A DNA stretch of 58,385 bases, from assembly GCA_001275005.1 (NCBI GenBank), contig JWZX01003227.1, positions 1 through 58,385 on the forward strand, given 5' to 3'. Positions within the stretch are counted from its first letter, which is position 1. Each line of letters begins with the position of its first letter. Below, in pieces: positions 61-58,385 of the stretch. The DNA is from Chrysochromulina tobinii. Lineage: Eukaryota. The notes under the pieces are model-generated. The model was not told where the DNA came from, searched no databases, and saw only the letters and a list, made by a program, of their open reading frames with translations. Made by a program: the position numbers and the translations under genes.

Positions 61-1518
61 GCGCCCCCAGCATCCTCGTCAACATTCGGCGCTGTTGCGG
101 GGGCCTCCTGGAGCTGTTCGAGGCGGGCATGCAACTCGCGGCGTTCGCGCTGGTAACCGACGAGCTCCTCGTGCAGCAAGCTCTCGTGCTGCGCTGCGCG
201 CTGCACCTCGGCGCGCATCTCTCCGGCCGTTGCGCGCGCCAGCTGCAGCTTCACCTGACGAAACTCGAGCGCACGGAGTCATCAGGGCTCATCAGGGCTC
301 ATCAGGGCTCATCAGAGGTCATCAAAGGTCATCAGTGGCACTCGCCTCGAGTTTCGTCGCACTCCGCTGCAATTCGGCGAGCGACGCCTGGTTCTGCGAG
401 GATTGCGCAAGGAGATCCAGGATCTCAGAGTCTGGAGACAGCTCGACGCCGTCCTCGGCGCCGTCTGCAGATGCGACAACCTCCTTCGCAGCCAACCGCT
501 CGAGCTCGAGGCGCAGCTGCGCCACCGTGCGCCTCAGCTCGTCGAGCGCGTCGGTACAGTCGGCATCGCCGTCATGCTCGCCACCGGCGAGCGCGCCAAG
601 CTGAACCTCGACCCCCGCAAGCTCGCCCCGCATCGCGTCGCTCTCGATGCGCCGCAGCTTACGCAGCCGCTCCTGGAAGCTGCACAGCGTCGCGACTGTC
701 GACGACTCGAGCTCATCCAGCGCGCTCAGCACAGTCGCAGGGCCCGCGCATGCCGACGACTCGTCCGCCACGGCCGCCTCGACACCCATTTCAGCGAGCT
801 CCTCAGCGGTTGGCACGCGCTCAGGCACGCGCTCTAACAGCCCTCGGGCTTTCAGCCCTCGTGCTAACAGCCCTCGTGCGCGCTCAGCCACCTCCCCTTC
901 AGCGGCGGCCCTGGCTGTTTGCGCCATCTCCGCCTGCGCCTCCGGTGGCGGATCGTTCCTCTCGGCGCGCAGCAGCACCTGTTCGCGGTCCAGGTCGATG
1001 GCATCGCGGTCCTGCGCGCGCCGTCGCTCGAGCCATCGCAACACTTCGAGCAGCTCCATCGTGAAGCTCGATGAGCGCACGGAGAGCGACGCAAACTGCT
1101 CGGCGATCGAGTCGTCGGGCGAGAGTGCATTGAGCGGCGGCGGCTGGATCATCGCAGAGACAGGCAATCCCTTCGCCCTAGCCGCCTTAGCCGCCTCGGC
1201 CTCTGCAAACTCGACTGCAGAGGACCGGCGATACGTGTTGTGCAGCACAGCCGCGGTGCGCTCAATATTCTGCGCCGAACGGTCGAGCATCGTGTGCGAG
1301 AAGTTCTGCTGCTCGAGCATGCGCTCGAGTTGCTCGAGTCCGCGGTCGCCCAGCCCGGCCTCCTCGACAGCGGCACCGCTTCCACGGCTCAAGGCGTCGA
1401 GCTCCTCCTTGAGAGCAAGCAGCAGCTCGTGCAGCACCTGTTTGTCCACACCGAACACCGACTCGTCCCACATCGTCGGCACGAGCGGATCGAAGCGCGC
1501 GAGTGGATTATCGACCAT
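1..1518 (-). CDS. Hypothetical coiled-coil protein, 3'-partial (runs off the window start); exons 1518-346 and 254-1
   Basis: Removing a GC-AG intron at 255-345 joins ...SATKLE to VKLQLARATAGEMRAEVQ...ELHARLEQLQE, continuing the heptad-like pattern into poly-Gly. The start at 1518 (MVDNPL) is tentative. Confidence 0.65.
255..345 (-). other. 91-nt GC-AG intron with 10-nt tandem repeats and an inverted copy of the upstream exon end
   Basis: Sense junctions GAG|GCGAGT...TTTCGTCAG|GTG; internal TGATGAGCCC-type units; 257-269 is the reverse complement of 346-358; splicing restores the frame. Confidence 0.8.
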
Positions 1519-14703: not shown

Positions 14704-16236
14704 ATGGTGAGTGCCTCCATTCACAAAGGTGTATGCGGCGCTCACATCTGCATGATGCGCACGACGCTGCTCTCTGGGCTGGCGATGTGCACAACTCCGA
14801 TCCACCAAGCTGCTGTGGTGCTGCTTCGACCTGGCGAGGACCACACTCTTGCACATGGATTACAACATGCCCTTGGAAAGATGCCTCTCGTTCACATCCA
14901 CGGCGATGATGGGAGGGCAGCCGCACAGGTAGACAGCATCAGTGGTGTGCGGGCCATCTTTGAGCTCGGCGTCTGTAGCCGATCGTCGATACCGCTGCTC
15001 GAGCTGAGCGAGGCATTGGGCGCGAGCCTTTACCGATATCAGCCCAGCGTGGCGATGTTCAAGCGGCTGCATGGCACCGATGGCCCAACATGGATCGCCA
15101 TCGGAACGGCGAGCGCCGCGTCAGAGGAGATCATCGCCGACGCTAATGGCTGGGGTTATCTCGCTGGTGACGAGGAGCCCGTACTCGATACCAAGGCGTT
15201 GACTGATGCTGAGCTCAGAAGGCTAATGACCCTGCCTGCAGAGCGCAGCAGCGACGAGCAGACCATAGCCGATGCGATGAGCACGCCTATCGTCATAGGT
15301 GAGCTTGGCTATCAAGTGATGTCGTCCGTCGAATTTCAGCAGAATGGGCGCCACACCTCTTGGACCACAATAGCAGCGCGCGTGCTCCTCTTCGGTTCCA
15401 CCGAGCCGCCACACTCGTATACTCTAGCGGATGGCACACCCTTTCCAGCCGAAGGTTCGGATGGTGTCTTTGTCTCCGCTGCCACTGGCGCCCCGCTTTT
15501 CGACAGCGTGCAGCGAAGGCGCAGCACGTCGGGATGGCCATCGTTCGTGGCGACCGGAGGCACGCTGTCGAAGCACCTCAAGCCCTCGATGGACTACAGT
15601 GCGGGCACTGCGCGTGTCGAACTCGTAGAGAGCCACACAGGCCTCCACCTCGGGCATGACCTGGGCGGCGTGTACTGCATCAACGCGGCTGCCCTGGCCT
15701 TTGTGCCACGCGGTGAACCGATGCCGGTGTGGCTGCCGGAACCACCCGCTCCCGCCTTGGCAGCGCTCCTGAGGACGCATCGAGGCACAAGGTGGCTCGG
15801 GCGCGCGACTGTGGCCACCCTCGCCGCCGGCTGCTTTTGGCACTTCCGCCGCTCGCTCGCTGCCATTCCCGGTGTGCTCGTGGCGGTTGCCGGCTATTGC
15901 GGAGGGGAGTCCGAGTCGCCGACGTATGAGGATGTGTGCACAGGCCGGAGCGGCCACGTCGAGGCGGTCCAAGTGGCCTTTGACCCTTTGGTGCTCACGT
16001 TCACCGAGCTGCTCGAGTCCTATTGGGGCATGGTGCCGGACCCGACATCGAGCTACAGGCAGGGAATGGACATCGGCCCACAGTACGAGAGCGCCATATT
16101 TTTCCATTCGGACGAGCAGCGACAGCTCGCGCTGCTGTCGCGCGAGCGTGCCGGCCGACGGATCGATGCGAAAATCGTCACGAAACTGCGCCCGGCGGGC
16201 CACTTTTGGATGGCTGAGGTCGAGCATCAGCGATGA
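14704..16236 (+). CDS. Methionine sulfoxide reductase MsrB-MsrA fusion with an unknown N-terminal region
   Basis: MsrB motifs PLFDS, SGWPSF, HLGH, YCINAAAL; MsrA motifs AAGCFW, PTYEDVCTGRSGHVEAVQV, QGMDIGPQYESAIF, AEVEHQ. Start could be 14704 or 14752. Confidence 0.85.
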   Translation: MVSASIHKGVCGAHICMMRTTLLSGLAMCTTPIHQAAVVLLRPGEDHTLAHGLQHALGKMPLVHIHGDDGRAAAQVDSISGVRAIFELGVCSRSSIPLLELSEALGASLYRYQPSVAMFKRLHGTDGPTWIAIGTASAASEEIIADANGWGYLAGDEEPVLDTKALTDAELRRLMTLPAERSSDEQTIADAMSTPIVIGELGYQVMSSVEFQQNGRHTSWTTIAARVLLFGSTEPPHSYTLADGTPFPAEGSDGVFVSAATGAPLFDSVQRRRSTSGWPSFVATGGTLSKHLKPSMDYSAGTARVELVESHTGLHLGHDLGGVYCINAAALAFVPRGEPMPVWLPEPPAPALAALLRTHRGTRWLGRATVATLAAGCFWHFRRSLAAIPGVLVAVAGYCGGESESPTYEDVCTGRSGHVEAVQVAFDPLVLTFTELLESYWGMVPDPTSSYRQGMDIGPQYESAIFFHSDEQRQLALLSRERAGRRIDAKIVTKLRPAGHFWMAEVEHQR

Positions 16237-25862: not shown

Positions 25863-27938
25863 TCAGTCTTCACACGAGTCTTCATCTTCAACCTTCCCCG
25901 CCTCCTCGTTTTCAGATTCGCTCTCAGGATCGCGGCTCCGCCGCCGCTGCCTTGCGCTTGCGCTCATCGTTTCCAGCAAGCCGCCGCGCCGCGCCGCTGC
26001 CTGCAGCCGCCCTCGTCGGACCGGCAAGACATCATCAATGAGTAGCAGCTGCGCGAGGCAGCCCAGGACGCCATCGACGAGCTGCAGTTTGAGGTCGAGT
26101 GGCTCGAGGATGCCGGCACTGGCAGCATCGGACAGCGACTGCAGGTGCACCTCGCCTACCGCACTCGGCGCCTGCGGCGGCACCAACACGAGTCCCAGCG
26201 CGCACCGCGACGACCGATCGTGCGCAGCTCGCAGGCTCTGTAGCACCGACGGCCAGCGGCTCGCATGCGCCGAGAGCGCGCGCGCTTGCGCCGCATTCAT
26301 GTGCAGCTGTCGCACGGAGCGACGGACGCGCTGTGGTGAGCACTTGCATGCAAGGCGGCTCATCCGTGGCAATCAACGTACCTGTCGCACGGGAGCGAGG
26401 AGCGCGGCGGAGAGGATCTGCAGCACGGCCGTTTGCTCAGGAAGGAGCGCCGTGGCGCTCGCGCTCGTACGCGCTTGCTTCTGCGCGGCTACCAACCGTC
26501 GCACGCTCGCCTCGAGCTGCATCTCAGCCGCCCCAGCGCCCGGGAGCGCCAGCAACACTCTGCGCCCCCACTCCTTTGCGTCCGCGTCAGTCCTCGTGCG
26601 CCCCGCGTCCAGCCACAGTCGCAAACTCCGCAGTGCACGGCCGACGGCGGCAGCGTACTCGTTTGCAAGTCCAGGCGAGGTAGCACGCACGACGAGCGAG
26701 CACAGCTGCGGCGCGCTCGCGAGCTGCACGCGCACGTAGCCCCGCCCGCCCAAGCGCAAGCACTCGAAGCTGCATCCTGGCTGAGCGAAGCCCGCAGTCG
26801 GTGTGAGCAGCGCCGTGAGCTCTGCCGGCCGAGGCCAGCGCTGAAGGATGGAGATGCCAGCCGCGGTAGCGAGCGCGCGCAGGTCGTCCTCATCGACGCC
26901 GGGCACGGCGCATACGCCGTGCTGTGCGCACAATTGCACCGTCAGCGCGCTAAGTGGTGCACCGCTCAGTAACAGCCGCACGCCGGCGGCATGGGCTGTC
27001 TGCACCCACGCCTCCCGCGATGCATGCACGAAGTCCACCCACCGGCCGGCCGCGCTGTCTATGCCGTTACAAGTAACGGCCGCGCTGTCTATGCCGCCGG
27101 CAGGCGCTTGATCCGCACTGACCACCACCTCGGCGGGCACGCCAGCCTCCACAGCCCTAGCCTCCGCTGCCGTCTGAACCTCAGGCGCTGCCGCATGGGC
27201 ACCGAGCAGCAGAAGCACACCATCCTTGCCGAACACTGGCATCAGCTCCGAGGACGGCGTGCCGCCGATGATTCGCCCTGCGGTTGCGCACGAGCGACTC
27301 GGCTGCGCACCGGGTGCGGCGACGAGTGCCAAGCACCTCGCGCGCGCCACCGTCCCGTCGAGTTGCCACGTGGCCGCTCCAGCAGGCAGCAGCGTGGCCG
27401 CTCGGGCAGGCAGCACCGCCTCGATGAGCGCCTCGGAGAGCGAGGCCGACGCGCTCGCACCCAGCTGCACGCCGAGCGCCGTTGCGGCTACACGATACGC
27501 ATCGGCACGAAAGGCGTCATCGCCGTCCAGCGTGCGCACCGCCTGCTCTCGCCAGCACTCTGTGAGGTTGTGCGGCAGCACCTCGAGCTGCAACCAGCAG
27601 ACGGCCCTTGACAAGCGCACCCGCCATGCCGCTTGGCGGTCCTTAGGAAGCGCTTGCAGCTGTTGGCCCACCTCGGCGCGTGCAGCGTCAAGCATAAGAG
27701 CGTAGGCTTTCACACCGTCACCGGCTATCTGCTCATGTGCTGATGCGGCTTCGAGCATGAGGCTCTCGATGGGGTGCTGGCTGACGATGGAAGAGAGAAT
27801 GCTCGCGCCACTACAAGTTAGCACTGCCTTACGCGCGGCAGTCAGTAGGAGTTTCTCGCGAGCCAATGGACCGAATGAGGAGCCGAGCGCGCTGCCAAGG
27901 AGTCCGACGTCCCACTTGTGAAAGTCGTAGACGGCCAT
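25863..27938 (-). CDS. BBS10: Chaperonin-like Bardet-Biedl protein, best resembling BBS10; exons 27938-26382 and 26306-25863
   Basis: SSFGP, QHPI and AGDGVK (BBS10-type GDGxK); after splicing 26307-26381 the TCP-1-like C-terminus GILEPLDLKLQL...LLLIDDVL is in frame. Confidence 0.7.
26307..26381 (-). other. 75-nt GT-AG intron with the palindromic motif and a direct exon-end duplication
   Basis: CAG|GTACGT...CAG|CTG; exon end TCGCTCCCGTGCGACAG versus intron end TCGCTCCGTGCGACAG. Confidence 0.85.
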
Positions 27939-29457: not shown

Positions 29458-29586
29458 GAGGCTGCTGCGCCGCGGGCACGAGCCGTCGCTCATCCAGCAG
29501 CGTATAGGCGCTGTGATGAGCACTTGCATGCAAGGCGGCCGAGGCTACTGCGCCGCGGGCACGAGCCGTCGCTCATCCAGCAGCGT
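29458..29586. repeat. 46-nt direct repeat (29458-29503 and 29541-29586, one mismatch) flanking the palindromic motif
   Basis: Read directly from the sequence; the single mismatch is the ATG18 stop TAG versus CAG. Confidence 0.95.
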
Positions 29587-30858
29587 GCAGGCACCGCCCT
29601 CGAGTGTGTACATCAGGAACGAGCCGCTTGAGGTGACCACCTGCAAATACGTCTTCCCATCCTCGGTGCCGCCGTCTCGCAAGGCCGCCCGGCACCAGCT
29701 CCCTTCCTTTTGGGGAGGAATCTTGACGTGCACGTGGGCAACGTCCCGTCCGGCATGCGCAGCGGAGGCCGTGTTGGCAAGCTTCTCGCGCAACCCACCG
29801 AGAGGGCCGCGGCGCCGCGCGGTGGCGCCGCCGCTGCTGCCACCGCCGCGTGGAGTCGCGACGCGGACTTCGCCCAGACGCCAGACGTGTACGGTGCCCG
29901 TCGAGGAAGCGGCGCATAGGAGCGGGCCGGTAATGGCTCCCTTTTTCTGCTTACTGGCGGTAGCACTGCCGCTGCCGCCGGCACAACCATTTCCGGGGCT
30001 TGCCCTTCCGGCGGCGCCGGGGCTCGCCCTGCCGGCGGCGCCCGGGCTCGCTCTGCCGGCGGCGCCCGGGCTTGCCCTGCCTTCGGCCGGCTCGGCGTCA
30101 GCTGCAGTGGCTGGCTGCAGGTCGCCCTCCGCCGCCGTCGGCGCCTCCGTCGAGAAGGCAATGCTGTGAATGGTCGCTCGCGCCGTGCCTCTACGGAAGG
30201 TGTGCAGGAGCTGGCCGGTGGCCACTCCGTGGACCCTGATGACCGTGCCCTTCAAGCTCGCGGTCGCGACCATGTCGCCACGCGCGTTCAGGGCGAGCGC
30301 CGCGAGAGGCGAGTGGTGAGCGGCAATCGTGCTCATCACGTGGCCGTGCGCTGCGTCGAAAAGTACCACGCGGCCGGGGCCGCTACTCGCCGTCGGCAGG
30401 AGGGCGCACACGGAAGTATCGCCCTCGTGTGTGAGCGCCGCCAGGCCGTGTGGGTTCGCATCCGTCTCGAGCGTGTGCAGCATTCGCATGGTTGCCAGCT
30501 CGAAGATGTGCGTTGCCTGGGCAATGACGACGATGAGGCGTGATCGATTCATGAGCACGTTCAAGATATCTGTTGCAAAGGGTATCTCGAACACAGGCGC
30601 CGCGGTCGAAGAGTTCCACAGCCGAAGTCGGCGCGGTGAGTCGCCGGCGCGCTCGCCGCAGCCGACGATGGCGATCAGCGATGAGGAGAAGAGCATCTGA
30701 ATGACTCCCACACCACAGTCACCGCTAGCACATGGTGCGAAGGGTTGACATGTGAACACGGACCACGCACGTCGCCATCCCACGGCGATGTGCGTGGCGT
30801 CCTGGTTGAATGAGATGCATTGTATCTGGTCCTCCACCAAGACCTTGTCCTCCGGCAT
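29545..30858 (-). CDS. ATG18: ATG18/WIPI PROPPIN
   Basis: SFNQD, MLFSSSLIAIVG, AHHSPLAAL, ATASLKGTVIRV, FRRG lipid-binding motif, SSTGTVHVW. Confidence 0.92.
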   Translation of the reverse strand: MPEDKVLVEDQIQCISFNQDATHIAVGWRRAWSVFTCQPFAPCASGDCGVGVIQMLFSSSLIAIVGCGERAGDSPRRLRLWNSSTAAPVFEIPFATDILNVLMNRSRLIVVIAQATHIFELATMRMLHTLETDANPHGLAALTHEGDTSVCALLPTASSGPGRVVLFDAAHGHVMSTIAAHHSPLAALALNARGDMVATASLKGTVIRVHGVATGQLLHTFRRGTARATIHSIAFSTEAPTAAEGDLQPATAADAEPAEGRASPGAAGRASPGAAGRASPGAAGRASPGNGCAGGSGSATASKQKKGAITGPLLCAASSTGTVHVWRLGEVRVATPRGGGSSGGATARRRGPLGGLREKLANTASAAHAGRDVAHVHVKIPPQKEGSWCRAALRDGGTEDGKTYLQVVTSSGSFLMYTLEGGACTLLDERRLVPAAQ

Positions 30859-30933: not shown

Positions 30934-33900
30934 TTAGCTCCGTGACGCGTACGTTGCGCTTGGGGCCGGCGCGGGTGCGGGCGCGGGCGCCGCGAGCACA
31001 TTCTTGAACGAGACGAGCCGCTCGGCACGCTCGCGATAGGTGCGGAGGAGCTCGGGGAGGAGCTCTTCGAGCTTCTCGTTCTCGGCGATGGCCGAGCGGA
31101 ATGTGACCTTGGCCAGGCCCGTCGGCTCGCCGGCCGCCGCATCGACACCGACGTGGTGCGTGAGCGTGCCGCCCGTCATCTTGTTCATGTGCAGCTGGAT
31201 CTTGAGGGAGCCTACTGGTAGGGCACGCGATGCCTCACGAGAGGCCTGGCGGCGCGCGAGGATGGCGTGCAGCGGCTCGTAGAGGGGGAGCACCTGCGCG
31301 AGGCCGAGGGGCTGCGGAACGAAGGCGAAGCAGCCCGGCTGCGCCTCGCCATAGAGGAGGCGCCACACCTCACAGAGCGTCAAGCGCAGCCGGGCGTGCC
31401 CCGCCGAGCCTCTCCCCATGAGTTCCCACAGAAGGCTGGCGGCCGCAATGGGCGCCGCCTCCCCGCGTTGCGCGAGCCGGCGCCGCTCGCGCTCGAGCCC
31501 CGCGCGGTAGCTCACGGCGGCGCGTGCATGCCTGTCCCTTGCCTCGTCCTCATCGTCGAGGCCGTCCTCGCCGACCGCACGCGCGCCGCGCACCGCCTGG
31601 CTCCCCTCCGAGTGTGAATTCACAGCCTGCTTGAGCAGGCGCAGCACCGCTTGCCAGAGCCACAGCTGCTCTAACGGCTCGTCCTTCCGCCGCTCCGAGA
31701 GCCCGAGGGCGAGCCCGAGCACGGACGTCGGGCGCGGGTGCGACGGCTCGTGCCGCACGGCGCCCGTGCCGCCCGTGCCGCCCTCGCGCCCAGCCCCAGC
31801 TGTGAATTCACACTCGGCTCCAACCGCTTCATCGCGAACGGCTGCCGCCTCGTCTGGCCGCTCAGGTCCGGCGAGAAGGGTGAGCCGGAGGAGGCAATCC
31901 GCGGCGGCCAGGCGCACGGACGGCAGCTGGCCGGCGGCCTCGTAGTGCCAGTAAGTGCGCCAGCTGGGGGTGGAGGCGGTGTCGGCCGAGGCGGAGGCCG
32001 AGGCGGAGGCGGGGGCGGAGGCGGGGGCGGAGGTCGATGCGGAGTGCGCGCGTGCAATCTCCACTGTACAGAGCGCATGCAGCGCGGCGCGGCAGAGGGC
32101 GCCGCCGTCGCGCGCGCCGGCGCCACGCCCTTCGAACGAGACGGAGACGAGCCGAAGCTGCCGCGTGATTCGGGCAACGACCTCGCGTTTTGCCCCTGGG
32201 TGGCGGCAGCGCGTGGTCGCGAGCGCCCGGAGCAGCGCGCCCACGTAGGCGCCATCGTCGAACTCGTTGCTCTCGTTGTCGTTCTCGTCGATGAGCTGGA
32301 GGAGCAGCTCGAAGGCGCCGGCCGGGGTGAAGCCCGAGGCGTCGCGGCACGTGCCGAGCGCCTCGACGAGCGCCTTGAACGTCGCGTACTCGCTCAAGTC
32401 CCCAAAATCGTTCGGGAGGACGTGGCCGCCCGTGTCGCACAGGAGCTCGCGCGCGAGCGCCACGAGCGCCTCGGCAGCCGCGCCCTCCGACACGAGCGCC
32501 GTGAGGCGCGCGAGCGCCGCAACGGCTGCGGTGCGCACGCGGAAGTACACGCTCCGGTCGCGCGCCACGTCGACGAGTGTGTGGACGGCCGTTGGGTTGG
32601 GAAAGGTAGCGAGGGCCGCCGCCGCCGCCTCTCGCGAGGGCACGTCCCGATCAAAGAGCAGCTGCGCCGTGCACATGCTCTCGGGCATGCCGGCCCACGC
32701 GCCATCGCCGGCGCGCCCGGTCCACGTGACGCGCACTGGCAGCTCGAGCCGCGGGTCGAGGCGTACCCAGAGCAGCGGGAGCAGCTGCCACGGCGCGGAG
32801 CTCGCCTCGTCCGCATCGTCGACGGCGGCGCGCGAGCGCTTGAGATGGCGCCGTCGCCGATGCGAACTGATCACCACTTCAATGAGCTGCTGCCGATCGA
32901 CTGGGCTGAGCTTCTTGTCGATCGTGCGGCTCACGCCGCCGTCGGCGCCGTCGTGCTCACCCCACCCGATGACGAGGGGGAACTCTCCGATCTGTGCGGC
33001 GGCCAACGGCTTGGGCGAGATCACGACGAGCTCGAGGCGGTGCTGCGGCTGGTTGAAGGCGAAGTTGGCGCGCAGCGTGGGGCACGGCTTGGCGGCGTAC
33101 ACCCACTCGCTCGCGAACGAGGCGCCCAACCGCACTCCCTGCGCCACGCATGCCGCCAGCAGTGCCGCCGTCGACGAAATGCGCTCAGGACGGCGCTCAT
33201 GCATCCCAGCCACCGCGGACGTCGAGGCGGTCGGCGTGCCGGCGTGCGCTGCGCAGCTCGATTCGACTGGCCGCCTGTTCGGCCGACTGGGCAGCAGATG
33301 CGCGAGCAGCCGGCTGAGCGACTGTTGGCCGCCGTCGGAGCGGATGGCAGCGGCCTCGATCATTCGCCACACGAGGGGCGCCTTGCGCCGGCGGTACTCG
33401 GTGAAGAGCTGCTCGGGATGGAGCCCACCGCCCCACCGCTCAAGCTCGGTGCTGTCGGGCACGAGAGCCTCTGGAGGCGCTCCCGCCTCCGTGAGCCACG
33501 CGCGCTCCTCGCTCAGCCGATGAGCTGCCTCGTCCGAACCGAACAGTGATCATCAGCGATCATCAGTGGCAATCAGTGGTCATCAGCGGTCATCATCAGT
33601 GGTCATCATCAATGGACACTCACCTGCCTCGTCCGAGCCAAACTCATGACGCGTGTACTCGTGCACCAAGCGCCCCTCGAGAGCCATGAGAAGCCATGCC
33701 TCGCGCCAACCGTCGAGCCACAAGAGCGCGAGCAGCCACGAGCGGCCAAGCGCACGGCCGAGCTCGATGCAGCTCGGGCGCGCCGGCTCGAGCGCCTCGG
33801 GCGAGTGGAGCCAGTGAGAAGAGAGCAGCACCAGCCCTCCAAACGATGCTGTCTCCTCACGAGCTCCTTCGAGCACCACGAGCACGTGGCGTGCGTACGG

Positions 33901-40369: not shown

Positions 40370-41818
40370 TTACGAGTGGGATGTTGCTGCGGGGGCTCCG
40401 CTCGCCGCCGCGAGCAGCTCCTTCCAGCGGCCAGCAGCTTCCGGCACGAGCCAGTCCCACGTCTGCTCCACCGCATGCGAGGCCTTAGGCGAGGCCGCAT
40501 TCTGCTTCTGGACTGCCCACACCATGGCCTCGAGCATGCGCTGCTTGCCACCGTCGTGCGTGAATCGGCCGTCAGAGTAGGCGCGCCACACCGTGGAAAG
40601 CACCTCGGGGAGCGGTGCCACCTCGGTAATGTGCCACAGACCCGGCGATGCCGAGGGCAGCATGCCTTCCGTGAGGACGTACCGAGGCGAGTTGCTCCCG
40701 CCCTTTGGCGCGCCGTGCTGCTTGCCGACGATCACGAGGCACGTCGGCCAGTACGCGAGGAGCATGTCACCCTGCTGCCGCGCGACGACCACATTGCCCT
40801 TCTTGTCAAAATACTTGTCGCGCTTCCGACCCTTGGGCTTGGCTCCGCCTTCGGCGGTGCGGCAGGCGGAGCGGGGGTCACTGGGCGCCGCCAGGGCTTC
40901 GGTTGCCGCCTCGCTGCTGGGGCACGGCATCGTCGAGTGGTGCGAGTGCGCCGACCACGTGCCCGCGGCCGCGCTCGCGATCGCGCCGCCGCTGGCTTCG
41001 CTGGCCATCAGCTCGGCCACGGTCTGGAAGCCTTCGAAGCCTGCGGGCAGCGGGCGCTTCGCGCCGGTGACGGGCGTGGGGGCCACACCTGCGGGCGCGC
41101 AGCGAAACTGCGGGCGCACGAATGGGATGTGTTTATCCTGTGGGGCAACGAGACTCGACGCAGCCAAAGGGCGGTGAGTAAAGACCAAAGTCAGCAGTGG
41201 GCCCTCGCTGCCCCTGCCACGCCGCTCGACGCATACCTGGCGCATGAGCTCCTTCATGCGCGAGATGCACTCCCCATCGGGTAGGTGCGCCGGGGCAAAG
41301 GGGCGCAGCACGGCCACGGGCAGCCACCTGCCGCCCCCCTCGAGCGGCTCGGCCTCGAGGCACCGCACCGGCGCGGTGAGGAGCTCGGGTGAGTGCCGCG
41401 TGCTGACGCTCTCGCCGTACAGCTTGAAGCGGATGTCACGCTTGCCGAGCACGGCCTCGTCGAGCGCCCCGACGACGTAGACCTGGAGCAGCTCGATGTA
41501 GTTGGCCGCGTTCGAGTGCGGCAGGAACTTTTTGAGCTGCCCCATCGCGGCATTGACGTGCGGAAAGAAAGCGCCCACCTGGCTGCCGTCCGGCGACTGC
41601 AGCACCGTGATGTTCTCGAGCGTCCAAAATTCGACCTTGTCGACGCGCAGCTTGATCACGGGCGCGCCCGTTGGCGCGAGCACCGACAAGTGCAGCCGCG
41701 AAGCGTCCGCGCCGCCGCCGGTCGCGACGCCGCACGTCGCCCGCACCATCGTTCGCCGGTACAGAGCGCGCGAGGTGGACGTCCATCGCTGCTCGTTCAC
41801 GTGAACGTCTAAAAACAT
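40370..41818 (-). CDS. Hypothetical protein
   Basis: Long ORF with coding-like codon pattern and no recognised motif; start uncertain (41818 or 41749). Confidence 0.6.
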   Translation of the reverse strand: MFLDVHVNEQRWTSTSRALYRRTMVRATCGVATGGGADASRLHLSVLAPTGAPVIKLRVDKVEFWTLENITVLQSPDGSQVGAFFPHVNAAMGQLKKFLPHSNAANYIELLQVYVVGALDEAVLGKRDIRFKLYGESVSTRHSPELLTAPVRCLEAEPLEGGGRWLPVAVLRPFAPAHLPDGECISRMKELMRQVCVERRGRGSEGPLLTLVFTHRPLAASSLVAPQDKHIPFVRPQFRCAPAGVAPTPVTGAKRPLPAGFEGFQTVAELMASEASGGAIASAAAGTWSAHSHHSTMPCPSSEAATEALAAPSDPRSACRTAEGGAKPKGRKRDKYFDKKGNVVVARQQGDMLLAYWPTCLVIVGKQHGAPKGGSNSPRYVLTEGMLPSASPGLWHITEVAPLPEVLSTVWRAYSDGRFTHDGGKQRMLEAMVWAVQKQNAASPKASHAVEQTWDWLVPEAAGRWKELLAAASGAPAATSHS

Positions 41819-42153
41819 CACACCCGTGTACCACCCCCGTGCGTTCGGGCGGACCGGACCGGGTCGAACGGGTGCCCTTAACGGCTAATATGTAAACATG
41901 CCCACACAAGAAATCTACATGTACTGTAACAATTGAATAGTCCACGAGAGCGGTACACAGATTTCGTGTTGATCGGGGGCAGCGGACCCGTCCGTGTGGT
42001 GAGGCGGAAGACCTACAGACATGCTCTAGTTCTCGCTATTTTTGGTGCTTTTTTACTCGCGTGCGTCGTGTTCCCAAGAGGACCAAGAGGCGACCATCCG
42101 TCCCACGAGGTGGCGCCAACTTCTGCGCAGTGGCGCCCGGCTTCTCCGCGATC

Positions 42154-44564
42154 ATGAAACCTCGCCGCCTCATCACCTGGCTCGGTTCGGAGCACGACAT
42201 CAGCTCCGACGCGGACATCCAGCTCGTGACCGGTATTCCCAAGCAGCATGCTGTGACGCTGGACCACAAAGATGGCGGCGGCAGACTGACATTTGTCTTT
42301 GACATTCGGTCGCTGACTCCAGGCTCGACTGCGCCACCGCTGCCACACATTCCGCCGCTGCCACAGCCGGATGAGCCGCCGCCGGCCGACTCGTCAACCA
42401 GCGTCCTGCGTGCTCGCGCCGACATGCTACGCAGGCGCGGATTGGATCATCTCCAGGGCGTGAGGCGCAGCGTGCGCGAGCAGCACGCGTCGCTGCGCGC
42501 GCTCGACGCCGCATTGCAATCGCTGCGCTGCGCGAGCGCGCACGGCGCGCCCACCGAGGCGCTCAGCGACGAGTGGCGCGGCGTCGTGCAGGCTGTTGCG
42601 GGCGAGCGGGCGGCCTCCGAGGGGCTGCCGCTGCAGAGCTCGCCCGAGGCGGGGCAGCAGCTGCTGCTCGCGAGCGAGGCGATCAGCCATCAGCAGGTGG
42701 CGCGCCAGCAGACAGCGTGCGCGCTCGAAGCCGACCTGAGCGACGACCTCGGCGCACAGCTCGCCACGATGGAGGCGAATGAGGCGCAGCTGCACGAGCT
42801 GCATGCAACAGTGATCGCGTCGCAGGCGATGCTGCGCCAACACATCCACCAGCGGCTGCAGCGCATCACGCAGTTGCAACACCACATGGCCGCGCTCTAC
42901 AGCCGTGCAGCCGCCGCCGCCGCCGCTGCTGCCGCCGCCGCCGCTGTCGCTCAGTCTCTCTCACTCCATGAGCCAGCGGCATCGTCGAAGCAGCCGACAT
43001 CGAAGCCGCAGCCGCCTTCGACACCGCCACCGCCGTCGACGCCAACGGCGCCCACCCCCCCGGCGGTGCCGGCCGCTCGCGCGCCTCCCACGCCGGCCGA
43101 CGCGCCGCGCTCGGCCAGTGGCACTGCTCACGGCACTGCCACTGGCGTGCCCTCGGTCGAGGGCGTTTCGTCAAAAGGAGACGGGCTCGAGAGCGTTTCG
43201 TCAGAAGGAGACGGGCTCGAGAGCCGCGCAATGGAAGATTTGGGCGACGGCGTGCTGATTCCGCGGATGATCGCGCGCCTGACGACGGCGGAGCGCACGC
43301 CTACGCTCGAGCTGCGGCCCGGGCTCAGCAGCATAGGCGAGTACGCCGTCGAGCGCTGCATCGGCACCGGATCCTTTGCTCAGGTGTACCTGCTACGGCG
43401 TCTCTCGAGTGCGGCGGTTCGTCAAAAGGCGAGCGGGGCGGGCGTGCAGCCGCCGCAGGCGCCGAGCAGCCTGGCCCCGGCTGGCCTGACGACAACAGCG
43501 ACGCTCCTCGCGCTCAAGGCCATCGATCGGCGGAATCTGACGCCCAAGACGGCGTCGCTCCTCGCCTCGGAGGTGCGCATCTTGCATGCAATCTCTCACC
43601 CGAACATCGTGCAGTTGCATGCGGTGGCCGCCTCGGCGCGCCACGTGTTTCTGTGGATGGACGCGGCGCACACGGACCTTGCCGCGCTCATCCGCGCGCG
43701 CACCGCCGGGGCCGGCGCGCGCGCGCCGCCCGACGAGCTCGAGGCCACCGCACTCCTTCGCCAGCTCGTCGACGGCCTATGCTACCTGCGGGTACGCAAG
43801 CTGCTCCATCGCGACATCAAGCCGCAGAACTTGCTCCTCTTCTTCCCGGACGCCCACGAGGACGCGTACGAGGGCGCTCTCGCGGGCGCGGGCGCTGTCG
43901 TGGGCGGCGCCAGCCCTCATCCCGTGGCCGACGGCTCTGCTCGCGCGGCGCGCTTACGGATCGCCGACTTTGGCCTCGCGCGTGCCCTCGATGGCGCGTC
44001 CATGGCCCGTACCGTCTGCGGCTCGCCCCTGTACATGGCGCCCGAGGCGCTGCGCGGGCAGCCCTACGGCGCCGCCGCGGAGGTCTGGTCCGTGGGCGTG
44101 TGTCTCTTCGAGATGCTCTCCGGGCGGGTGCCTTACAGCGGCGCGACAGTGCCCGAGCTATTGGCCGCCATCGATGCGGCGCCACGTGGCCAGCCGCCCG
44201 CCGTGCCGGGCGTGTCTGCCGCCGCGACGAAGCTGCTCATCGCAGCGCTTCAGCCTGTGCCCGAGGCGCGCATCAGCATCGAACAGATGGCGACGCATGC
44301 ATTCCTCTGTTCGACGCATGCATGCCTTGACGATGCATGCGTCGCCCTCGACGGTGCCGGTGCAGCGCCCGGTGCAGCGCCCATCCGCGCGGCGGCAGCA
44401 CCAGCTATGTCGCCGGCGCTGCCCCCAGTGACCGCGAGAGCCGCAGTGCAGGCTGAGGCCACCCAGGCTGAGGCCACCCAGGCTGAGGCCACGTCGAAGT
44501 GTACCACAGGTTCCACACGCTCCCTCGATGCTGGTGGGCTCAATGCTGGTGGCGGGCCCGTTCT

Positions 44565-44606
<42 letters not shown>

Positions 44607-45827
44607 CGCCTTGGGTGAGACGGCGAATGGCTTCATGACGGTCGGGCCGCCTTCGACCCTCGCGGCCGGGAGCAGCTTCCTCCTCGAGTGGGCTCTGACC
44701 AGCCAGCCGGAGACGGCCGTGCTCGAGACGGCCGTGCGTGCCCTCACCGCCGAGGTGCGCCATCTCGAGCTCGAGCTCACGCGCCGTCTCGAGCACGAGC
44801 AGCAGCGGGCGGCGGTTACGGCGGAGGCGGCGGTTACGGCGGTTACAGCGGTTACGAGATCGGAGCCCGAGGGCGCTCACGAGGGCGCTCAGAGCGCTGC
44901 CGAGGGCGCTCACGAGGGCGCTCAGAGCGCTGCCAGGCAGCGGCTGCTCGCCGCCCTCCAGCGGCTCGTTAGGATGCTCCCCTCCGCTGCGAACGCCTCC
45001 GCCCCCTCCCCCAACGGCGGCGCTGTCGTGGGCGTGGACGCTATCGTGGGCGTGGACGCTGTCGTGGGCGGCGCGAACGCCTCCGCCCCCTCCCCCAATG
45101 GCGGCGCGGCCGCCGAGGCCGCGCCCGCTCCTGCCGCCGCCAGCGCCTCGAGAGAGAGACGCGAGGAAGCGTTGGTGGCCGAGGCGCTCGAGGGCGCGCT
45201 TCGGGCCCAAAAGATCTTCCGCGACAAGGTGGAGGAGTGCCGTCGGCTGCGCGCGTCCATGCGGCGCTCTCCGGTGGTGACGAACCCCGCGCGCTCGAGC
45301 GATCGCTCGGGGTTAGTCACCACCGGATTCCGCTTCGACGACCGTGTGGCCTTCGTGCGCCGCGCCAGCGTCCCCCGGGGGAGTGCCCCCGGGGGGAGTG
45401 TGGCCGCTGTGGGCGCCGGGTTGGGCGCTCCCGGGCAGCTCGTGGCGGCGGGCGGCAAGGCAGCGGCGCCCCATTCAGTGCCATTGTATGTTGCATTGCG
45501 TGAAGGTGCCGCTGGACCTCTCCCTCCTTTCTCTGGTGGGCGTCTCTCTGCATGCAGGTGCTCACCACGGCGCCCTCGCCTCTCCCCACAGGTGACGCAG
45601 GGCCTCCCTACTTTCTCTCGAGGGCGTCTGAGGAGAGCCTGTGCCGCGCGATGCACTGTACGCATGCGAGCCTGCCGCCCGTCGCCATCGGCAAGGTGGT
45701 GCACGTCGAGAAGCTGCACGCATCCCCCGAGAACGCGGCGGCTCTTGGCTTGCGCCCTGGCGCGCCCTTCAACGTCATCACGGCCGAGATGCACACCGAC
45801 CTCGCGCCCGAAGTGACGGGAAGGTGA
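42154..45827 (+). CDS. ATG11/FIP200-like scaffold with an embedded ATG1/ULK kinase domain; exons 42154-45505 and 45592-45827
   Basis: Kinase motifs IGTGSFAQV, ALKAI, HRDIKPQNLLL, IADFGLAR, TVCGSPLYMAPE; Claw-like C-terminus after splicing; N-terminal helical region resembling ATG17/ATG11. Confidence 0.8.
45506..45591 (+). other. 86-nt GT-AG intron with the palindromic motif (alternative in-phase donor at 45536)
   Basis: GAAG|GTGCCG...CCCCACAG|GTGACG; splicing shifts into the frame of ORF 45552-45827. Confidence 0.8.
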
Positions 45828-47804: not shown

Positions 47805-49130
47805 GGCCCGGCATGGCGCAACGCCCGATGGACCACGCTCGCCTCCTCCTGCAGCGCATGGGCCTTGAGACCAATGGTGCGCATCATCTCGAGTGCCGCG
47901 TCGAGCTCGTCGCGCATCGCGTACATGAGCGCATCGCGCGACGGCCCCACCGCCTGCTCAAAGTCGGCAGCTTCCGCCTGCTCGAAGTCGGCGGCTTTCG
48001 CCTGCTGCTGCCGCTCCTGCTGCTGCTCCTCGAGCCTCAGCCGGAGCCGCCGCATCTCATTCTGCTGCTGCATGTGCTGCAGCATGTGCTGCTGCTGCTG
48101 TTGCTGCTGCTGCTGAAGGAGCTCCTCCCTCTCCAGAAGCTCCGCGCGATGGCGTTCGCGCTCCTCCTGGCGCTGACGCGTGGCCTCGGCTTCGTCCCAC
48201 GCCTTCTGCAGCTCCTGTGCCTGAAGAAGGAACTCGTCCTGCGCGCGGCGCTCCGCCTGGCGCGCGGCGACCGACCCTGCCTCGTGCATGCGACGCTCCT
48301 GCCCGAGTCACACGCCGAATTCTCGCAATTAGAAGCCAATCTGAGGCAATCAAGGGTCATCAGAGGACATCAGTGGTCATCACCTGCTCCAGCCGCGCGT
48401 CCTCCGCTTCGCCGAGCACAGACGCGGCCACGCGTGCTTCGAAAGCGGCGCGTGCCTCCCGTTCCCATCCGTCCCACGCGGACGAGGTGCGCCGGAGGGC
48501 CTCGAAACGCGCGAGCAGCTGCGGCAGCGTGCCGATCGGGTTGATCACGGGGCGCCGCTGCTGCGCGAGGGCCGTGGCATCCGCTGCAGAGAGGGCCTCC
48601 TTCCACATCAGCAGCAGGCAGCCCGTGGTTCCGGCGCGGTGGGCGCCAGCAAGGCAGTGCACGAGCACATTGTTGCCGGCGCTGAGCGCCTCGTCGACGA
48701 AGCGGAAGAGCGGCGTCACGAAGTCGAGCAGTGACCGCGAGTCGCCTGAGTGGCGCATGTGGTGTGCCGCGTGGAACCGCATGTACTTCACGCCGCCATC
48801 ACAAAAGTTGGGCAGGTCGTCGGTCGCGTTCACGACGTGCGTGATGTCGGCCGCCTTGAAGTAGCTCAGGGGGCCGCGGGCTGCCGATTCGTTGCCCACG
48901 AAGATGATGCCGCCCGTGGTAGGATCACGCCAGAGGGCGTCCATGTCGTGGTAGCTGGCGCTGTCGCCCTCGCCGAGCGTGGCAAAGAGCTTGCGCGCCT
49001 CGGCGGAGTAGTCGTGCTCGGCCGGGCCCGGCGAGTGCTGCTCGAGAAGCGCGAAAAGCCGCCGTGCGGCGGCGGAGTCCATGCCAGCCGCTGCTGATGA
49101 GCGCATTCGCGCGCGGTCCTCACTGTTCAT
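46508..49130 (-). CDS. Dual-specificity phosphatase with coiled coil, acidic tract and WW-like domain; exons 49130-48384 and 48298-46508
   Basis: VLVHCLAGAHRA (HCx5R), ITHVVN, RRPVINP; WW-like PGWKVMRTAAGEPFWFNEISGSTS; intron 48299-48383 joins two ORFs in frame. Confidence 0.85.
48299..48383 (-). other. 85-nt GT-AG decamer-repeat intron
   Basis: CAG|GTGATGACCACTGATGTCCTCTGATGACCC...GGGCAG|GAG; only GCAG is shared with the exon end. Confidence 0.85.
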
Positions 49131-55890: not shown

Positions 55891-58385
55891 TCAGAGCTCG
55901 GCTAGCCGACTGAGCGCCGCTACCTCAGGCGACTGGGACTGCCACGCCTGCTCGATGCGCTCCTGACAGCGCACCCACGCAGGCAACGGAACGGTGCCGT
56001 CCGCATTCGTCTCGTCCACAGCACGCAGGATGTGGCGCCCTTCCTGCTCGAGGAGTGCCTTCCGATGAGGGATGCAATCAGAGGCCATCAGCGGCCATCA
56101 GCGGTCATCAGCGCACCTGCTCGAGAAGTGCGTGCAGCTGCGTGCGTCGCTTCGCGTCCCACTCGCGCGCGATTGTCGAGTATGACGGGCCCGCCGTGTG
56201 GTCCGCCTCCAAGAAGGCGAGGAAGGCCTCCGGGTGAGCACCAGCGCCTTCGAGCAGCATCCGAAAGCGCATTGTGAATAGCTCACACACGCATTCGGCA
56301 ATCTCGGCGCCGTGGCGCGAGTCGCTCGTGAGTGCCGAGAGCACACGCACGATGAGGAGGCGCGTCTCCGTAACGGCTGCCGGTGTAACGGCTGCCGGTG
56401 TAACGGCTGCCGGTGTAACGGCTGCCGGTGTAACGGCTGCCGGTGTAACGGCTGCCGGTGCGACTGGTGTAACGGCTGCCGGTGCGACTGGTCCCAAGAG
56501 CGGGCGCAGCAGCAGCACGAGGCCGCCCAGTCGGAGGAAAGCGAGCACCGCGGCCGGCGAGCGGCGCACAAGGTCGACGACGAGGCCCAGCGAGCCGGCG
56601 GCCAGCGTTGGGGTGCGCGTGCTCAACGCGACGAGGCCCAGCAGATGAGCGCCCTTGACCGACGAGGCGAACTCGATGGCGCCCACGACGGCGCCGCCTG
56701 GCTTGGAGAGGGCCTGCAGCACCTGCAGCACGAGTGAGAGCACCGAGAGCGGCATCGGCGAGCGCACGCTACCGAAGAAGAAGTCGGCCGCCGCGACGCA
56801 CGCGCGGTGCGTGCACAGGGACGCATGCAGCGTGAGGAGCTGCAGCAGTGCCTTCCACATCAGGGCCGCGTGACGCCCCAGGCGCACAACGGCCGTCTCG
56901 GCATCGAGCGCGTCGTCCTGGGCGCATATCGCGTCGTCCTGGGCATATAACGCGTCGTCCTGGGCGCCTCGGGCGCTCGTGGCCGCCGCCTCCTCCTCCT
57001 CCTCCTCCTCGGCCTCGATTGCAAATCGTGGCTGCGAAGCGCTCATCACGGCGCTGTGGAGCGGGCGAGACAGGTCCCGAAGCGCCGTGATGAGCGCCAC
57101 CAGGAAGTGGCCGGCCGCCGCTGCCGTCGCGAACGAGAACTTGCCGTCCGCGGCCACGAAGGGCTCGAGGAACAAGCCGCCCACATTGAGGTCCGTCTCG
57201 GCTGCCGCGAGCTTCGCAAGCAGTGCGGTGGGCGCCCAGCACGGCGCCCAGCCCACGTCACTCCTCACCGGCGCCGTGCTGGGCGCCGTACTGAGCGCCG
57301 TCCTGAGCGCCGTGCTGGGCGCCGTGCTGGGCCCGCCGCCGCGACCGTCGCCCACTCCGAGCAACTCGACGATCGGGCCCAGCTCGTCCTCCTCGAGATC
57401 ACATCGGAGATTACATCGGAGGTTGCATCGGAGCGACTCGACGATCGGGCTCAGCTCGTCCTCGAGGGCTAGGCGGAGCCGCGACCGCCGCTCGGCGTGC
57501 CAGATCAGGAGCGGGTTGGAATGATTCGCGTCGAGCTGAGCGAGCAGCGCGCTCGCCTCCCCAAAAGACATGCACGCGAGCTCATCCACAAACTGCGGCG
57601 ATTAGTGGCAATTATTGGCAGTCAGTGGCAACTGGTGGAAATTAGTGACAATTAGAGGCGATTAGTGGCAATTAGAGGCAATTAGAGGCAATCAGTGGCG
57701 CCCACCTGCGGCGCGAGGCAGCGATCGAGGAGCTCTTCCGCCGCAGGGCCCACGGTGGCGTCGGCGAGCAGTGCGCAGAGAGTGTCGACTGCCGCCGCGC
57801 GCACTTCGATCGAGGCGCCTTGGAGGAGCGGGTCGGGGAGCGGGTCGGGGGGCGGGTCGGGGGGCGGGTCGGGGGGCGGGTCGGTGGGGGCGATCGGGTC
57901 GGTGGGGGAGGTCGGGGAGGGGCTCTCCGGCAAGTAGTCGAGCAGTAACGTGGAATGGCCAAGGACATGGAAGAGACACGAGAGCACGACTCCTCCGCGC
58001 ACCACCGCCTCCGCCACGCTCACAACGGCGCCATTTGGCCCGACCGCACCACTGGGCCCGACCGGTGCGTTGTCTCGCCGGTCGCTCAGCACGGCGCGAG
58101 GCGGGCGCTCAGTACGGCGCCACGGGCGCTCCGACGAGGCGCCGTCCTGAGCGCCCGTGCTCTCGAGCCTGATGAGGGCGGCAATCAGGCGCAGCGTGCC
58201 CGCACGCCCCCTCGGGGGTAGTGGTGCGTGCGTGTAAGAGCACGTGGAGCCGCGGGAGCGCCTGCAGTGCGAAGCGCACGGCCGCGTCGCGCGCCGTCGT
58301 GAGCGCCCCGGAGGCCGCTCGCGCTGTCTCGGGCGCATCGGCCGTCGCGGCGGCGCGCGCCGTCGTGAGCGCGGTGGGCGTGGGT
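55891..58385 (-). CDS. 5'-partial helical-repeat protein resembling the RME-8/DNAJC13 C-terminal region; introns 57593-57705 and 56044-56116
   Basis: LDANHSNPLLIW and LNVGGLFLEPF resemble RME-8 NPxLIW and ELxVGxxF segments; two introns join three ORFs in frame; upstream exon structure unresolved. Confidence 0.55.
56044..56116 (-). other. 73-nt GT-AG decamer-repeat intron with a 14/15-nt direct exon-end duplication
   Basis: Exon end GCACTTCTCGAGCAG versus intron end GCACTCCTCGAGCAG. Confidence 0.9.
57593..57705 (-). other. 113-nt GT-AG intron almost entirely of 10-nt repeats, with an 8-nt direct duplication
   Basis: About ten CTAATTGCCW/CTGATTGCCT units; CGCCGCAG ends both the exon and the intron. 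Confidence 0.9.

What the first reader, a model, noticed from the sequence alone, without database searches (positions are those of the whole stretch)
42154..45827. Single-chain ATG11/FIP200-ATG1 fusion with the kinase inside the scaffold
Seen: an N-terminal short beta/alpha region (...IQLVTGIP...TFVFD) and helical segments (EQHASLRALDAALQSL; MLRQHIHQRLQRITQL), then a complete kinase with ATG1-type signatures (HRDIKPQNLLL, TVCGSPLYMAPE), then coiled coils. After splicing, the C-terminus reads FRFDDRVAFVR...YVAL...PYFLSRASEESL...AIGKVVHVEK...LGLRPGAPFNVITAEM, matching the ATG11/FIP200 Claw pattern. No ATG1 C-terminal MIT/EAT region is evident. Established: ATG1/ULK and ATG11/FIP200 are normally separate subunits of one complex that also involves ATG13. 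Inference: a covalently fused autophagy-initiation module that might not need ATG13. The N-terminal assignment is weaker than the kinase and Claw calls.
Basis: partly seen in the sequence, partly recalled or inferred. Interest (0 to 1): 0.82.

Follow-up and report, generated by a model that had tools for sequence, protein, structure and literature searches.

The report
Algal autophagy kinase fused to scaffold
In a haptophyte alga and unnamed relatives, one gene places the autophagy-starting ATG1/ULK-type kinase inside a predicted, shortened ATG11/FIP200 scaffold, two proteins that work as separate subunits in yeast, plants and animals, so it likely starts autophagy at cargo without the usual ATG13 bridge.

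Summary
The gene (42154-45827, one inferred 86-nt intron, 1195 aa) has three parts. The N-terminus folds in prediction as a FIP200 ubiquitin-like domain plus a shortened helical arm (best match FIP200, Z 18.7; TBK1 17.1). The middle is an intact kinase closest to ULK1/2. The C-terminus is a Claw: a close relative's model matches the FIP200 Claw best of 48,161 chains, and two orthologues pass Pfam cut-offs for both kinase and ATG11 on one chain. There is no MIT domain. Five other full-length orthologues (52-63% kinase identity) share the layout, three seen as unbroken ORFs, so this is no artefact. The organism is Chrysochromulina parva or a close relative. A normal ATG1 with MIT domains exists in the same lineage, so the fusion is an extra paralogue, not a replacement. 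Likely mechanism (inferred): Claw-bound cargo receptors cluster dimers and activate the tethered kinase without ATG13. Splicing, dimerisation and ATG13 status are not shown. I found no paper describing this fusion, but two key surveys could not be read.

The parts
42154..45827 (+). Whole gene: FIP200-like ULD and arm, ULK-type kinase, helices, Claw; 1195 aa after one inferred intron
   Evidence: same layout in P0001, P0002, P0004/L005, L004, L006
42154..42315 (+). Small beta/alpha domain (aa 1-54), predicted reduced ubiquitin-like domain as at the start of FIP200
   Evidence: AlphaFold2 model, pLDDT 84-91 here; aligns from FIP200 residue 1
42397..42909 (+). Helical arm (aa 82-252), predicted shortened FIP200 arm / TBK1 scaffold fold
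   Evidence: 31-42% identity to five orthologues
42910..43326 (+). Ala/Pro-rich linker of variable length, ending in a conserved EDLG-type motif before the kinase
43327..44307 (+). ULK/ATG1-type Ser/Thr kinase (aa 392-718): G-loop, Lys455, HRD 552-554, DFG 605-607, activation-loop Thr620, APE
44674..44988 (+). Two conserved post-kinase helices (aa 841-945); not MIT; not assigned to any known part
   Evidence: (30-50% identity)
45160..45267 (+). Short coiled-coil helix just before the Claw (aa 1003-1038)
   Evidence: FIP200 C-terminal region 6gma is the top Foldseek match
45310..45505 (+). Claw, first exon part, with a lineage-specific Gly/Ala insert
45506..45591 (+). Inferred 86-nt GT-AG intron; 5' half resembles the downstream exon, 3' half is a repeat shared with other loci; absent in relatives
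   Evidence: splicing not shown directly by RNA
45592..45827 (+). Second exon: rest of the Claw and stop codon
   Evidence: 96% identical to intronless P0046

Best explanation
This gene encodes one chain with an intact ULK/ATG1-type kinase between a predicted FIP200-type N-terminal domain and a predicted FIP200-type Claw, and it likely acts as a self-contained, ATG13-independent starter of selective autophagy. Shown: the single reading frame, the conserved layout, intact catalytic motifs, and no MIT domain. Inferred steps: (1) the coiled coil and Claw dimerise, as the FIP200 C-terminal region does; (2) the Claw binds cargo receptors; (3) dimerisation and clustering on cargo bring kinase domains together for activation-loop autophosphorylation at Thr620; (4) the ULD and arm dock the PI3K complex; (5) the covalent link replaces the MIT-ATG13 bridge. 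The lineage's normal ATG1 would serve the ATG13-dependent route. Odds: architecture about 0.93, this mechanism about 0.65.
For: Kinase profile: ULK2 211, ULK1 203-206, ULK3 189, next MARK4 172 bits. 14 of the 18 non-fusion hits of the kinase search carry ATG1 MIT families. N-terminal model pLDDT 87, best match FIP200 8soi_A, Z 18.7, rmsd 3.1, 250 aligned. P0046 model: FIP200 Claw 7ea2_B, Z 10.7, rmsd 2.4, 87 aligned, the only Z>=8 of 48,161; all 16 rows listed down to rank 21 of Foldseek are FIP200 Claw or C-terminal entries. Pkinase and ATG11 both above cut-off on one chain in L006 and P0099. Six full-length fusions form one clade, 100/100. MIT profile: six fusions 0 bits or less, L009 90.5. 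PMC7511232 (abstract, Discussion): fission-yeast Atg1 is activated by Atg11-mediated dimerisation without Atg13, and artificial dimerisation bypasses Atg11. PMC6477179 (passages): the FIP200 C-terminal region is a dimer and binds receptors. PMC12440827 (passages, part 2): ULD contacts VPS15.
Against: No function was measured. The window's lineage group has no Pfam ATG11 hit; only 4 of 17 Claw groups have a member above cut-off, and 3 more hit weakly. Sequence-profile searches of the PDB with Claw and N-terminal alignments did not list FIP200. Foldseek and the wide VIA search rank IKK/TBK1 above FIP200 for the N-terminus, and the ESM Atlas ranks IKK clusters first for whole L006. The N-terminal alignment ends at FIP200 residue 470, before its dimerisation domain (496-599). 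RNA contigs show no splice joint, and several read through the intron ends. A normal MIT-bearing ATG1 in the lineage implies that ATG13 may still be in use and could bind the fusion's arm.
Confidence: 0.65

Rival explanations
1. The fusion is these algae's only ATG11 and still scaffolds the normal ATG1-ATG13 pair, giving a complex with two kinases in which ATG13 is still needed.
For: A normal ATG1 with tandem MIT exists in the same lineage (L009). The ULD, which carries one ATG13 contact in FIP200 (V44, PMC12440827 part 2), is kept. No separate full-length ATG11 from this lineage was seen, though none could be searched for properly.
Against: About 220 internal FIP200 residues and the 496-599 domain, which holds ATG13 contacts R543 and R548, have no counterpart in the N-terminal alignment. 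Whether V314/R326/R334 fall in the gap was not shown.
Confidence: 0.2
2. It is a TBK1/IKK-like signalling kinase assembled convergently (ULD, scaffold, kinase, Claw) that works in defence or stress signalling, not in autophagosome initiation.
For: The short arm has TBK1's length and matches it at Z 17.1. IKK/TBK1 come first.
Against: The kinase is ULK-type; no TBK1/IKK among the best 60 of 745 PDB matches. The domain order differs from TBK1. Identity in the structural alignment is 15% to FIP200 and 7% to TBK1. It ends in a Claw, which is an ATG11/FIP200 feature.
Confidence: 0.1
3. The fusion is an assembly or gene-model artefact, or the window's copy is broken and makes a protein without a Claw.
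For: No splice joint in 4 of 4 RNA runs laid; contigs X13#7, X15#21 and X15#23 keep intron sequence. The existing gene model P0058 is mis-joined.
Against: L004, L005 and L006 hold the whole layout in one ORF. The intron has canonical ends and restores the frame seen in P0046. One RNA contig (X16#31) leaves the genome sequence at 45590, where a spliced read would.
Confidence: 0.05

Closest known systems
FIP200/RB1CC1 and ATG11 (Pfam PF10377; PDB 8soi, 6gma, 7ea2)
   Same: Predicted ULD plus helical arm at the N-terminus; coiled coil plus Claw at the C-terminus.
   Different: A kinase sits inside the chain. The arm is about half as long. No counterpart was found for the 496-599 dimerisation domain. 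The roughly 700-residue coiled coil is reduced to a few short helices.
ATG1/ULK1/ULK2 kinases
   Same: Kinase domain closest to ULK1/2, with intact catalytic motifs and the activation-loop Thr before CGSP.
   Different: The kinase is internal, not N-terminal. It has no tandem MIT, so no known ATG13-binding module. It is a long-branch paralogue beside a normal ATG1.
TBK1/IKK kinases
   Same: [quoted passage not shown]
   Different: Order is ULD-arm then kinase. The kinase is ULK-type. A Claw is built in.
Fission-yeast Atg1-Atg11(522-583) and artificially dimerised Atg1 (PMC7511232)
   Same: Atg13-independent activation by Atg11-driven dimerisation, the logic inferred here.
   Different: There the link is non-covalent or engineered; here it is natural and covalent, with the Claw kept.

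Membership tests
ATG11/FIP200 | C-terminal Claw (PF10377) | tested here: met
   Fold match of the P0046 model. Pfam above cut-off in L006, P0048, P0056, P0099, P0110. No hit for the window's own pieces.
ATG11/FIP200 | N-terminal ULD plus helical arm | tested here: met
   Window aa 1-253 model against 8soi_A: Z 18.7, rmsd 3.1, 250 aligned; shortened. No Pfam hit in this region.
ATG11/FIP200 | N-terminal-domain dimerisation segment (FIP200 496-599) | tested here: inconclusive
   Alignment ends at FIP200 residue 470; the post-kinase helices were not assigned.
ATG11/FIP200 | Long central coiled coil (FIP200 791-1498) | tested here: not met
   Only about 350 residues from the first post-kinase helix to the end, with short helices.
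ATG11/FIP200 | Homodimer through the C-terminal region | not tested
ATG11/FIP200 | Binding of cargo-receptor FIR motifs | not testable with these tools
   Needs binding assays; pocket residues were not mapped residue by residue.
ATG1/ULK1/2 | ULK-type kinase domain | tested here: met
ATG1/ULK1/2 | Intact catalytic motifs | tested here: met
   G-loop, Lys, HRD, DFG and activation loop in 6 of 6 fusions; the alphaC Glu matched in 5 of 6 there and is seen for L006.
ATG1/ULK1/2 | C-terminal tandem MIT (ATG13-binding) domain | tested here: not met
   No Pfam MIT hit. Home-made MIT profile: fusions 0 bits or less; 2 of 3 controls and L009 score 76-103.
ATG1/ULK1/2 | Kinase at the N-terminus | tested here: not met
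   The kinase starts at about aa 308-430 in the six fusions.
ATG1/ULK1/2 | Descent from haptophyte ATG1 | tested here: inconclusive
   L009 is sister to the fusion clade at 45/85 only; no non-ULK eukaryotic outgroup.
TBK1/IKK | ULD plus scaffold fold | tested here: met
   Z 17.1 to TBK1 308-638.
TBK1/IKK | IKK-family kinase placed before the ULD | tested here: not met
   The kinase follows the arm. No TBK1/IKK among the best 60 PDB matches (148 bits or more), against 211 for ULK2.

The most novel reading that the evidence does not exclude
Haptophyte algae evolved a one-protein autophagy initiation complex: a miniature FIP200 with its own ULK kinase and cargo-binding Claw. It is a second, independent invention of the TBK1 design (kinase plus FIP200-type scaffold), is switched by cargo clustering alone and escapes ATG13/TOR control, running beside a normal ATG1 pathway.
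Probability: 0.45. Interest if true: 0.88.

Novelty: new variant of a known kind. Interest (0 to 1): 0.76.

Why it matters
ATG1/ULK and ATG11/FIP200 are studied as separate subunits bridged by ATG13, and how cargo clustering activates the kinase is still debated. A natural, conserved single chain of about 1,000-1,200 residues would be a minimal initiation complex. It can be expressed alone to test whether dimerisation or clustering is enough, which scaffold parts are dispensable, and whether ATG13 is only a regulated tether. It also gives a natural parallel to the proposed FIP200-TBK1 relationship. It may explain why BLAST surveys find few core ATG orthologues in some haptophytes (PMC11449223, section 7).

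Tried and rejected
Pfam on the window's unspliced ORF and pieces: only kinase families. PDB sequence searches with the second exon, the L006 Claw and the Claw and N-terminal profiles listed no FIP200; one search was swamped by the kinase. A homologue search with aa 1000-1120 found none among 4,153 candidates. The N-terminal profile search gave only 2 proteins among 7,998 candidates and covered lengths 139-545 only. ESM Atlas gave no usable hit for the second exon. No neighbour synteny was seen in the 20 tblastx rows printed for L004; L005 and L006 rows were not displayed. No conserved ATG8-binding motif was found in the linkers by a simple pattern. No genome is held for this window, so ATG13, ATG101 and a separate ATG11 could not be looked for. 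Three look-ups of earlier findings were empty. Rejected: frameshift error instead of intron (three other assemblies agree; canonical ends); IKK-family kinase; post-kinase helices as MIT.

Full report
Gene and organism. The ATG at 42154 opens one frame through the N-terminal region, kinase, coiled coil and first half of the putative Claw; the rest of the Claw is in another frame ending at 45827. I scored 9 of the candidate GT-AG introns listed with a Claw profile from 14 orthologues (window-like sequences left out). Intron 45506-45591 scored best (182.8 bits; unspliced 68.8), giving 1195 aa. An intronless close relative, P0046, reads straight through the same point and is 96% identical over the second exon. 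Three other assemblies match the window at 99.96-99.99%; they may be the same strain. P0058, labelled by its source as Chrysochromulina parva, is 98% identical over the last 64 residues and nearly identical in the kinase, though its model is mis-joined. So the organism is C. parva or a close relative, a haptophyte.

RNA. I laid 4 of the 6 RNA runs found. Contigs cover 19-25 of 30 bins at low depth, begin at 42089-42104 in 3 of 4 runs, and are absent from 41700-42007 in all four. No joint was listed and no contig spans the gene. Contigs X13#7, X15#21 and X15#23 keep intron sequence. One contig (X16#31) follows the genome from 46098 to 45590 and has 18 unplaced letters beyond; a spliced read would break exactly there, but the letters were not shown, so this is a hint only. 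Splicing and a single transcript are therefore not shown. The fusion does not depend on them, since scaffold, kinase and half the Claw share one ORF.

Conservation. A kinase search gave 22 proteins among 7,990 candidates. The top four (P0001-P0004) have the same N-terminal region and internal kinase; P0001, P0002 and P0004 also end in the Claw-like domain, and P0003 is a variant of P0004 whose tail runs in another frame. Of 80 metagenome loci kept, L004, L005 and L006 hold the whole layout in one unbroken ORF; L005 is the P0004 cluster. That gives six full-length lineages with the window. Identity to the window is 52-63% in the kinase, 31-42% in the arm, 32-56% in the Claw, and low with many gaps in the linkers. 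A Claw profile found 27 proteins among 1.84 billion, one an Ig-repeat false hit (P0065). Sixty Claw sequences fall into 17 groups at 70% identity. In 9 of 17 a member has kinase sequence on the same chain (only the kinase tail in P0057); the other 8 are C-terminal pieces of up to 428 aa and are undecided. Only P0058 has an organism name. That the others are haptophytes is inferred.

Kinase. The window's kinase matches ULK1/2 best in the PDB (118.7 against 102.2 bits). A four-sequence profile gives ULK2 211, ULK1 203-206, ULK3 189, MARK4 172, with no TBK1/IKK among the best 60 of 745. Of 18 non-fusion hits, 14 carry ATG1 MIT families (PF24497 named). Catalytic motifs are intact in all six. The six fusion kinases form one clade (SH-aLRT 100 among 52 rows; 100/100 among 37 rows after dropping 15), unresolved among ATG1s. 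The set was gathered with this kinase and has no non-ULK eukaryotic outgroup, so the tree does not test family membership.

C-terminus. Pfam ATG11 passes its cut-off of 22 in L006 (29.3 for the domain, 24.4 in the whole ORF beside Pkinase), P0048, P0056, P0099 (27.3, beside Pkinase 41.3), P0110, and the more distant P0059, P0067 and P0105. By group this is 4 of 17 above cut-off, 3 weak, and none for the window's group. An AlphaFold2 model of P0046 (19 sequences, mean pLDDT 75.7, about 90 in the second half of the Claw) matches the FIP200 Claw best of 48,161 chains (7ea2_B, Z 10.7, rmsd 2.4, 87 aligned; next 7.1). Foldseek lists only FIP200 entries down to rank 21 (best E 9.8e-5; next fold E 0.36). 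The model is of the relative, not of the window's spliced protein.

N-terminus. The model of window aa 1-253 (10 sequences, pLDDT 87.3, pTM 0.81) has a small beta/alpha domain and four long helices. Among Foldseek's candidates, VIA-align ranks FIP200 first (8soi_A, Z 18.7, rmsd 3.1, 250 aligned to residues 1-470, 15% identity), then TBK1 (Z 17.1, 7%). Against this, Foldseek puts IKK2 and TBK1 above 8soi (rank 21), and the wide search gives TBK1 16.4, IKK1 11.3 and another FIP200 chain 11.2. These proteins share the fold (PMC7337493, passages and Discussion; PMC12440827, passages and part 2), so the fold alone does not pick FIP200. Higher identity and the Claw at the other end do. About 220 FIP200 residues are skipped, and the match ends before the dimerisation domain (496-599).

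MIT and the normal ATG1. A profile from 16 ATG1 C-termini scores the six fusions at 0 bits or less, 2 of 3 controls at 76 and 103 (P0013 negative), and L009 at 90.5. L009 encodes a 1518-aa ATG1 model with an N-terminal kinase and one inferred intron. It shares an intron-repeat family with the window and has the highest tetranucleotide correlation with it among the loci of 4 kb or more (0.73; L006 0.71). It belongs to the same lineage; the same genome is likely but not shown. It is sister to the fusion clade at 45/85 only. The fusion is thus an extra paralogue, likely from an ATG1 duplicate that lost MIT and entered an ATG11 gene.

Mechanism. The FIP200 C-terminal region is a dimer that binds receptors (PMC6477179 and PMC7946963, passages). 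Fission-yeast Atg1 is activated by Atg11-driven dimerisation without Atg13 (PMC7511232, abstract and Discussion). The FIP200 ULD contacts VPS15, and MIT-ATG13 tether ULK1 to the scaffold (PMC12440827). With the tether made covalent and MIT gone, the simplest reading is a dimeric, cargo-clustered initiator that needs no ATG13. NBR1 homologues are reported in haptophytes (PMC9582228, passages) and are candidate receptors. All these steps are inferred. A constitutive dimer would need a brake; none was identified.

Novelty. Ten full-text searches (seven aimed at a fusion, haptophyte autophagy genes or the evolution of the complex) listed no paper on a natural ATG1-ATG11 fusion. I saw listings for most papers. 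I read passages or sections of PMC11449223, PMC7511232, PMC7337493, PMC12440827, PMC7946963, PMC6477179, PMC9582228, PMC10104450 and PMC9860276. Two surveys that could bear on this were not held (doi 10.1242/jcs.233742, recalled as a eukaryote-wide ATG survey; PMC4502668), nor were the supplements of PMC11449223, which list algal ATG11 sequence ids. By the membership tests it is neither a full ATG1 nor a full ATG11, but a conserved chimera of both: a new variant of a known kind, interest 0.76.

Noticed in passing
window 45506-45591: The intron's 5' half resembles the downstream exon (score 57, against at most 51 in 1000 shuffles). Its 3' 45 bases are a repeat that RNA contigs join to many other sequences (depth 50-107), with two more copies at 26328-26352 and 29507-29532. 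Relatives lack it: likely a recent, introner-like gain. Introners are reported in Chrysochromulina sp. (PMC9860276, passages).
   Followed up: partly
L009 6781-6871; window 299-345, 33560-33620, 48325-48395, 56050-56120: A second intron-repeat family with tandem ATGACCTCTG-like units. In L009 the intron start also duplicates about 30 bases of the next exon.
   Followed up: partly
L009 6007-10654 (also L008, L010, L011): Normal ATG1 of the same lineage: N-terminal kinase, very long low-complexity linker, tandem MIT; 1518-aa model.
   Followed up: yes
window 29545-30858 (-): PROPPIN (ATG18/WIPI family) gene about 11 kb from the fusion; probably chance proximity.
   Followed up: no
P0067, P0105: Fragments with two Claw-like units in tandem (two profile matches; Pfam ATG11 69 bits on the second). 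Organism unknown.
   Followed up: no
P0059: More distant fragment with a strong Pfam ATG11 hit (51.6 bits) that also shares the pre-Claw helices of the fusions; too short to tell whether it has a kinase.
   Followed up: partly
L021, L023, L026, L028, L031, L033, L034, L037, L040, L047, L049, L058, L068, L069, L075-L077: A supported clade (SH-aLRT 96) of short (336-616 aa) ULK-like kinases; those measured lie on low-GC contigs (0.21-0.43). Possibly giant-virus or protist genes; not checked.
   Followed up: no
P0063: cNMP-binding domain joined to the last strands of this Claw type; likely a chimeric contig.
   Followed up: no
window 14704-16236 (+): ORF with both SelR (MsrB) and PMSR (MsrA) domains, a methionine sulfoxide reductase fusion.
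   Followed up: no
window 40370-41818 (-): 482-aa divergent neighbour about 340 bases upstream, without a Pfam match at 1e-4; no RNA contig on its first part in 4 runs.
   Followed up: no
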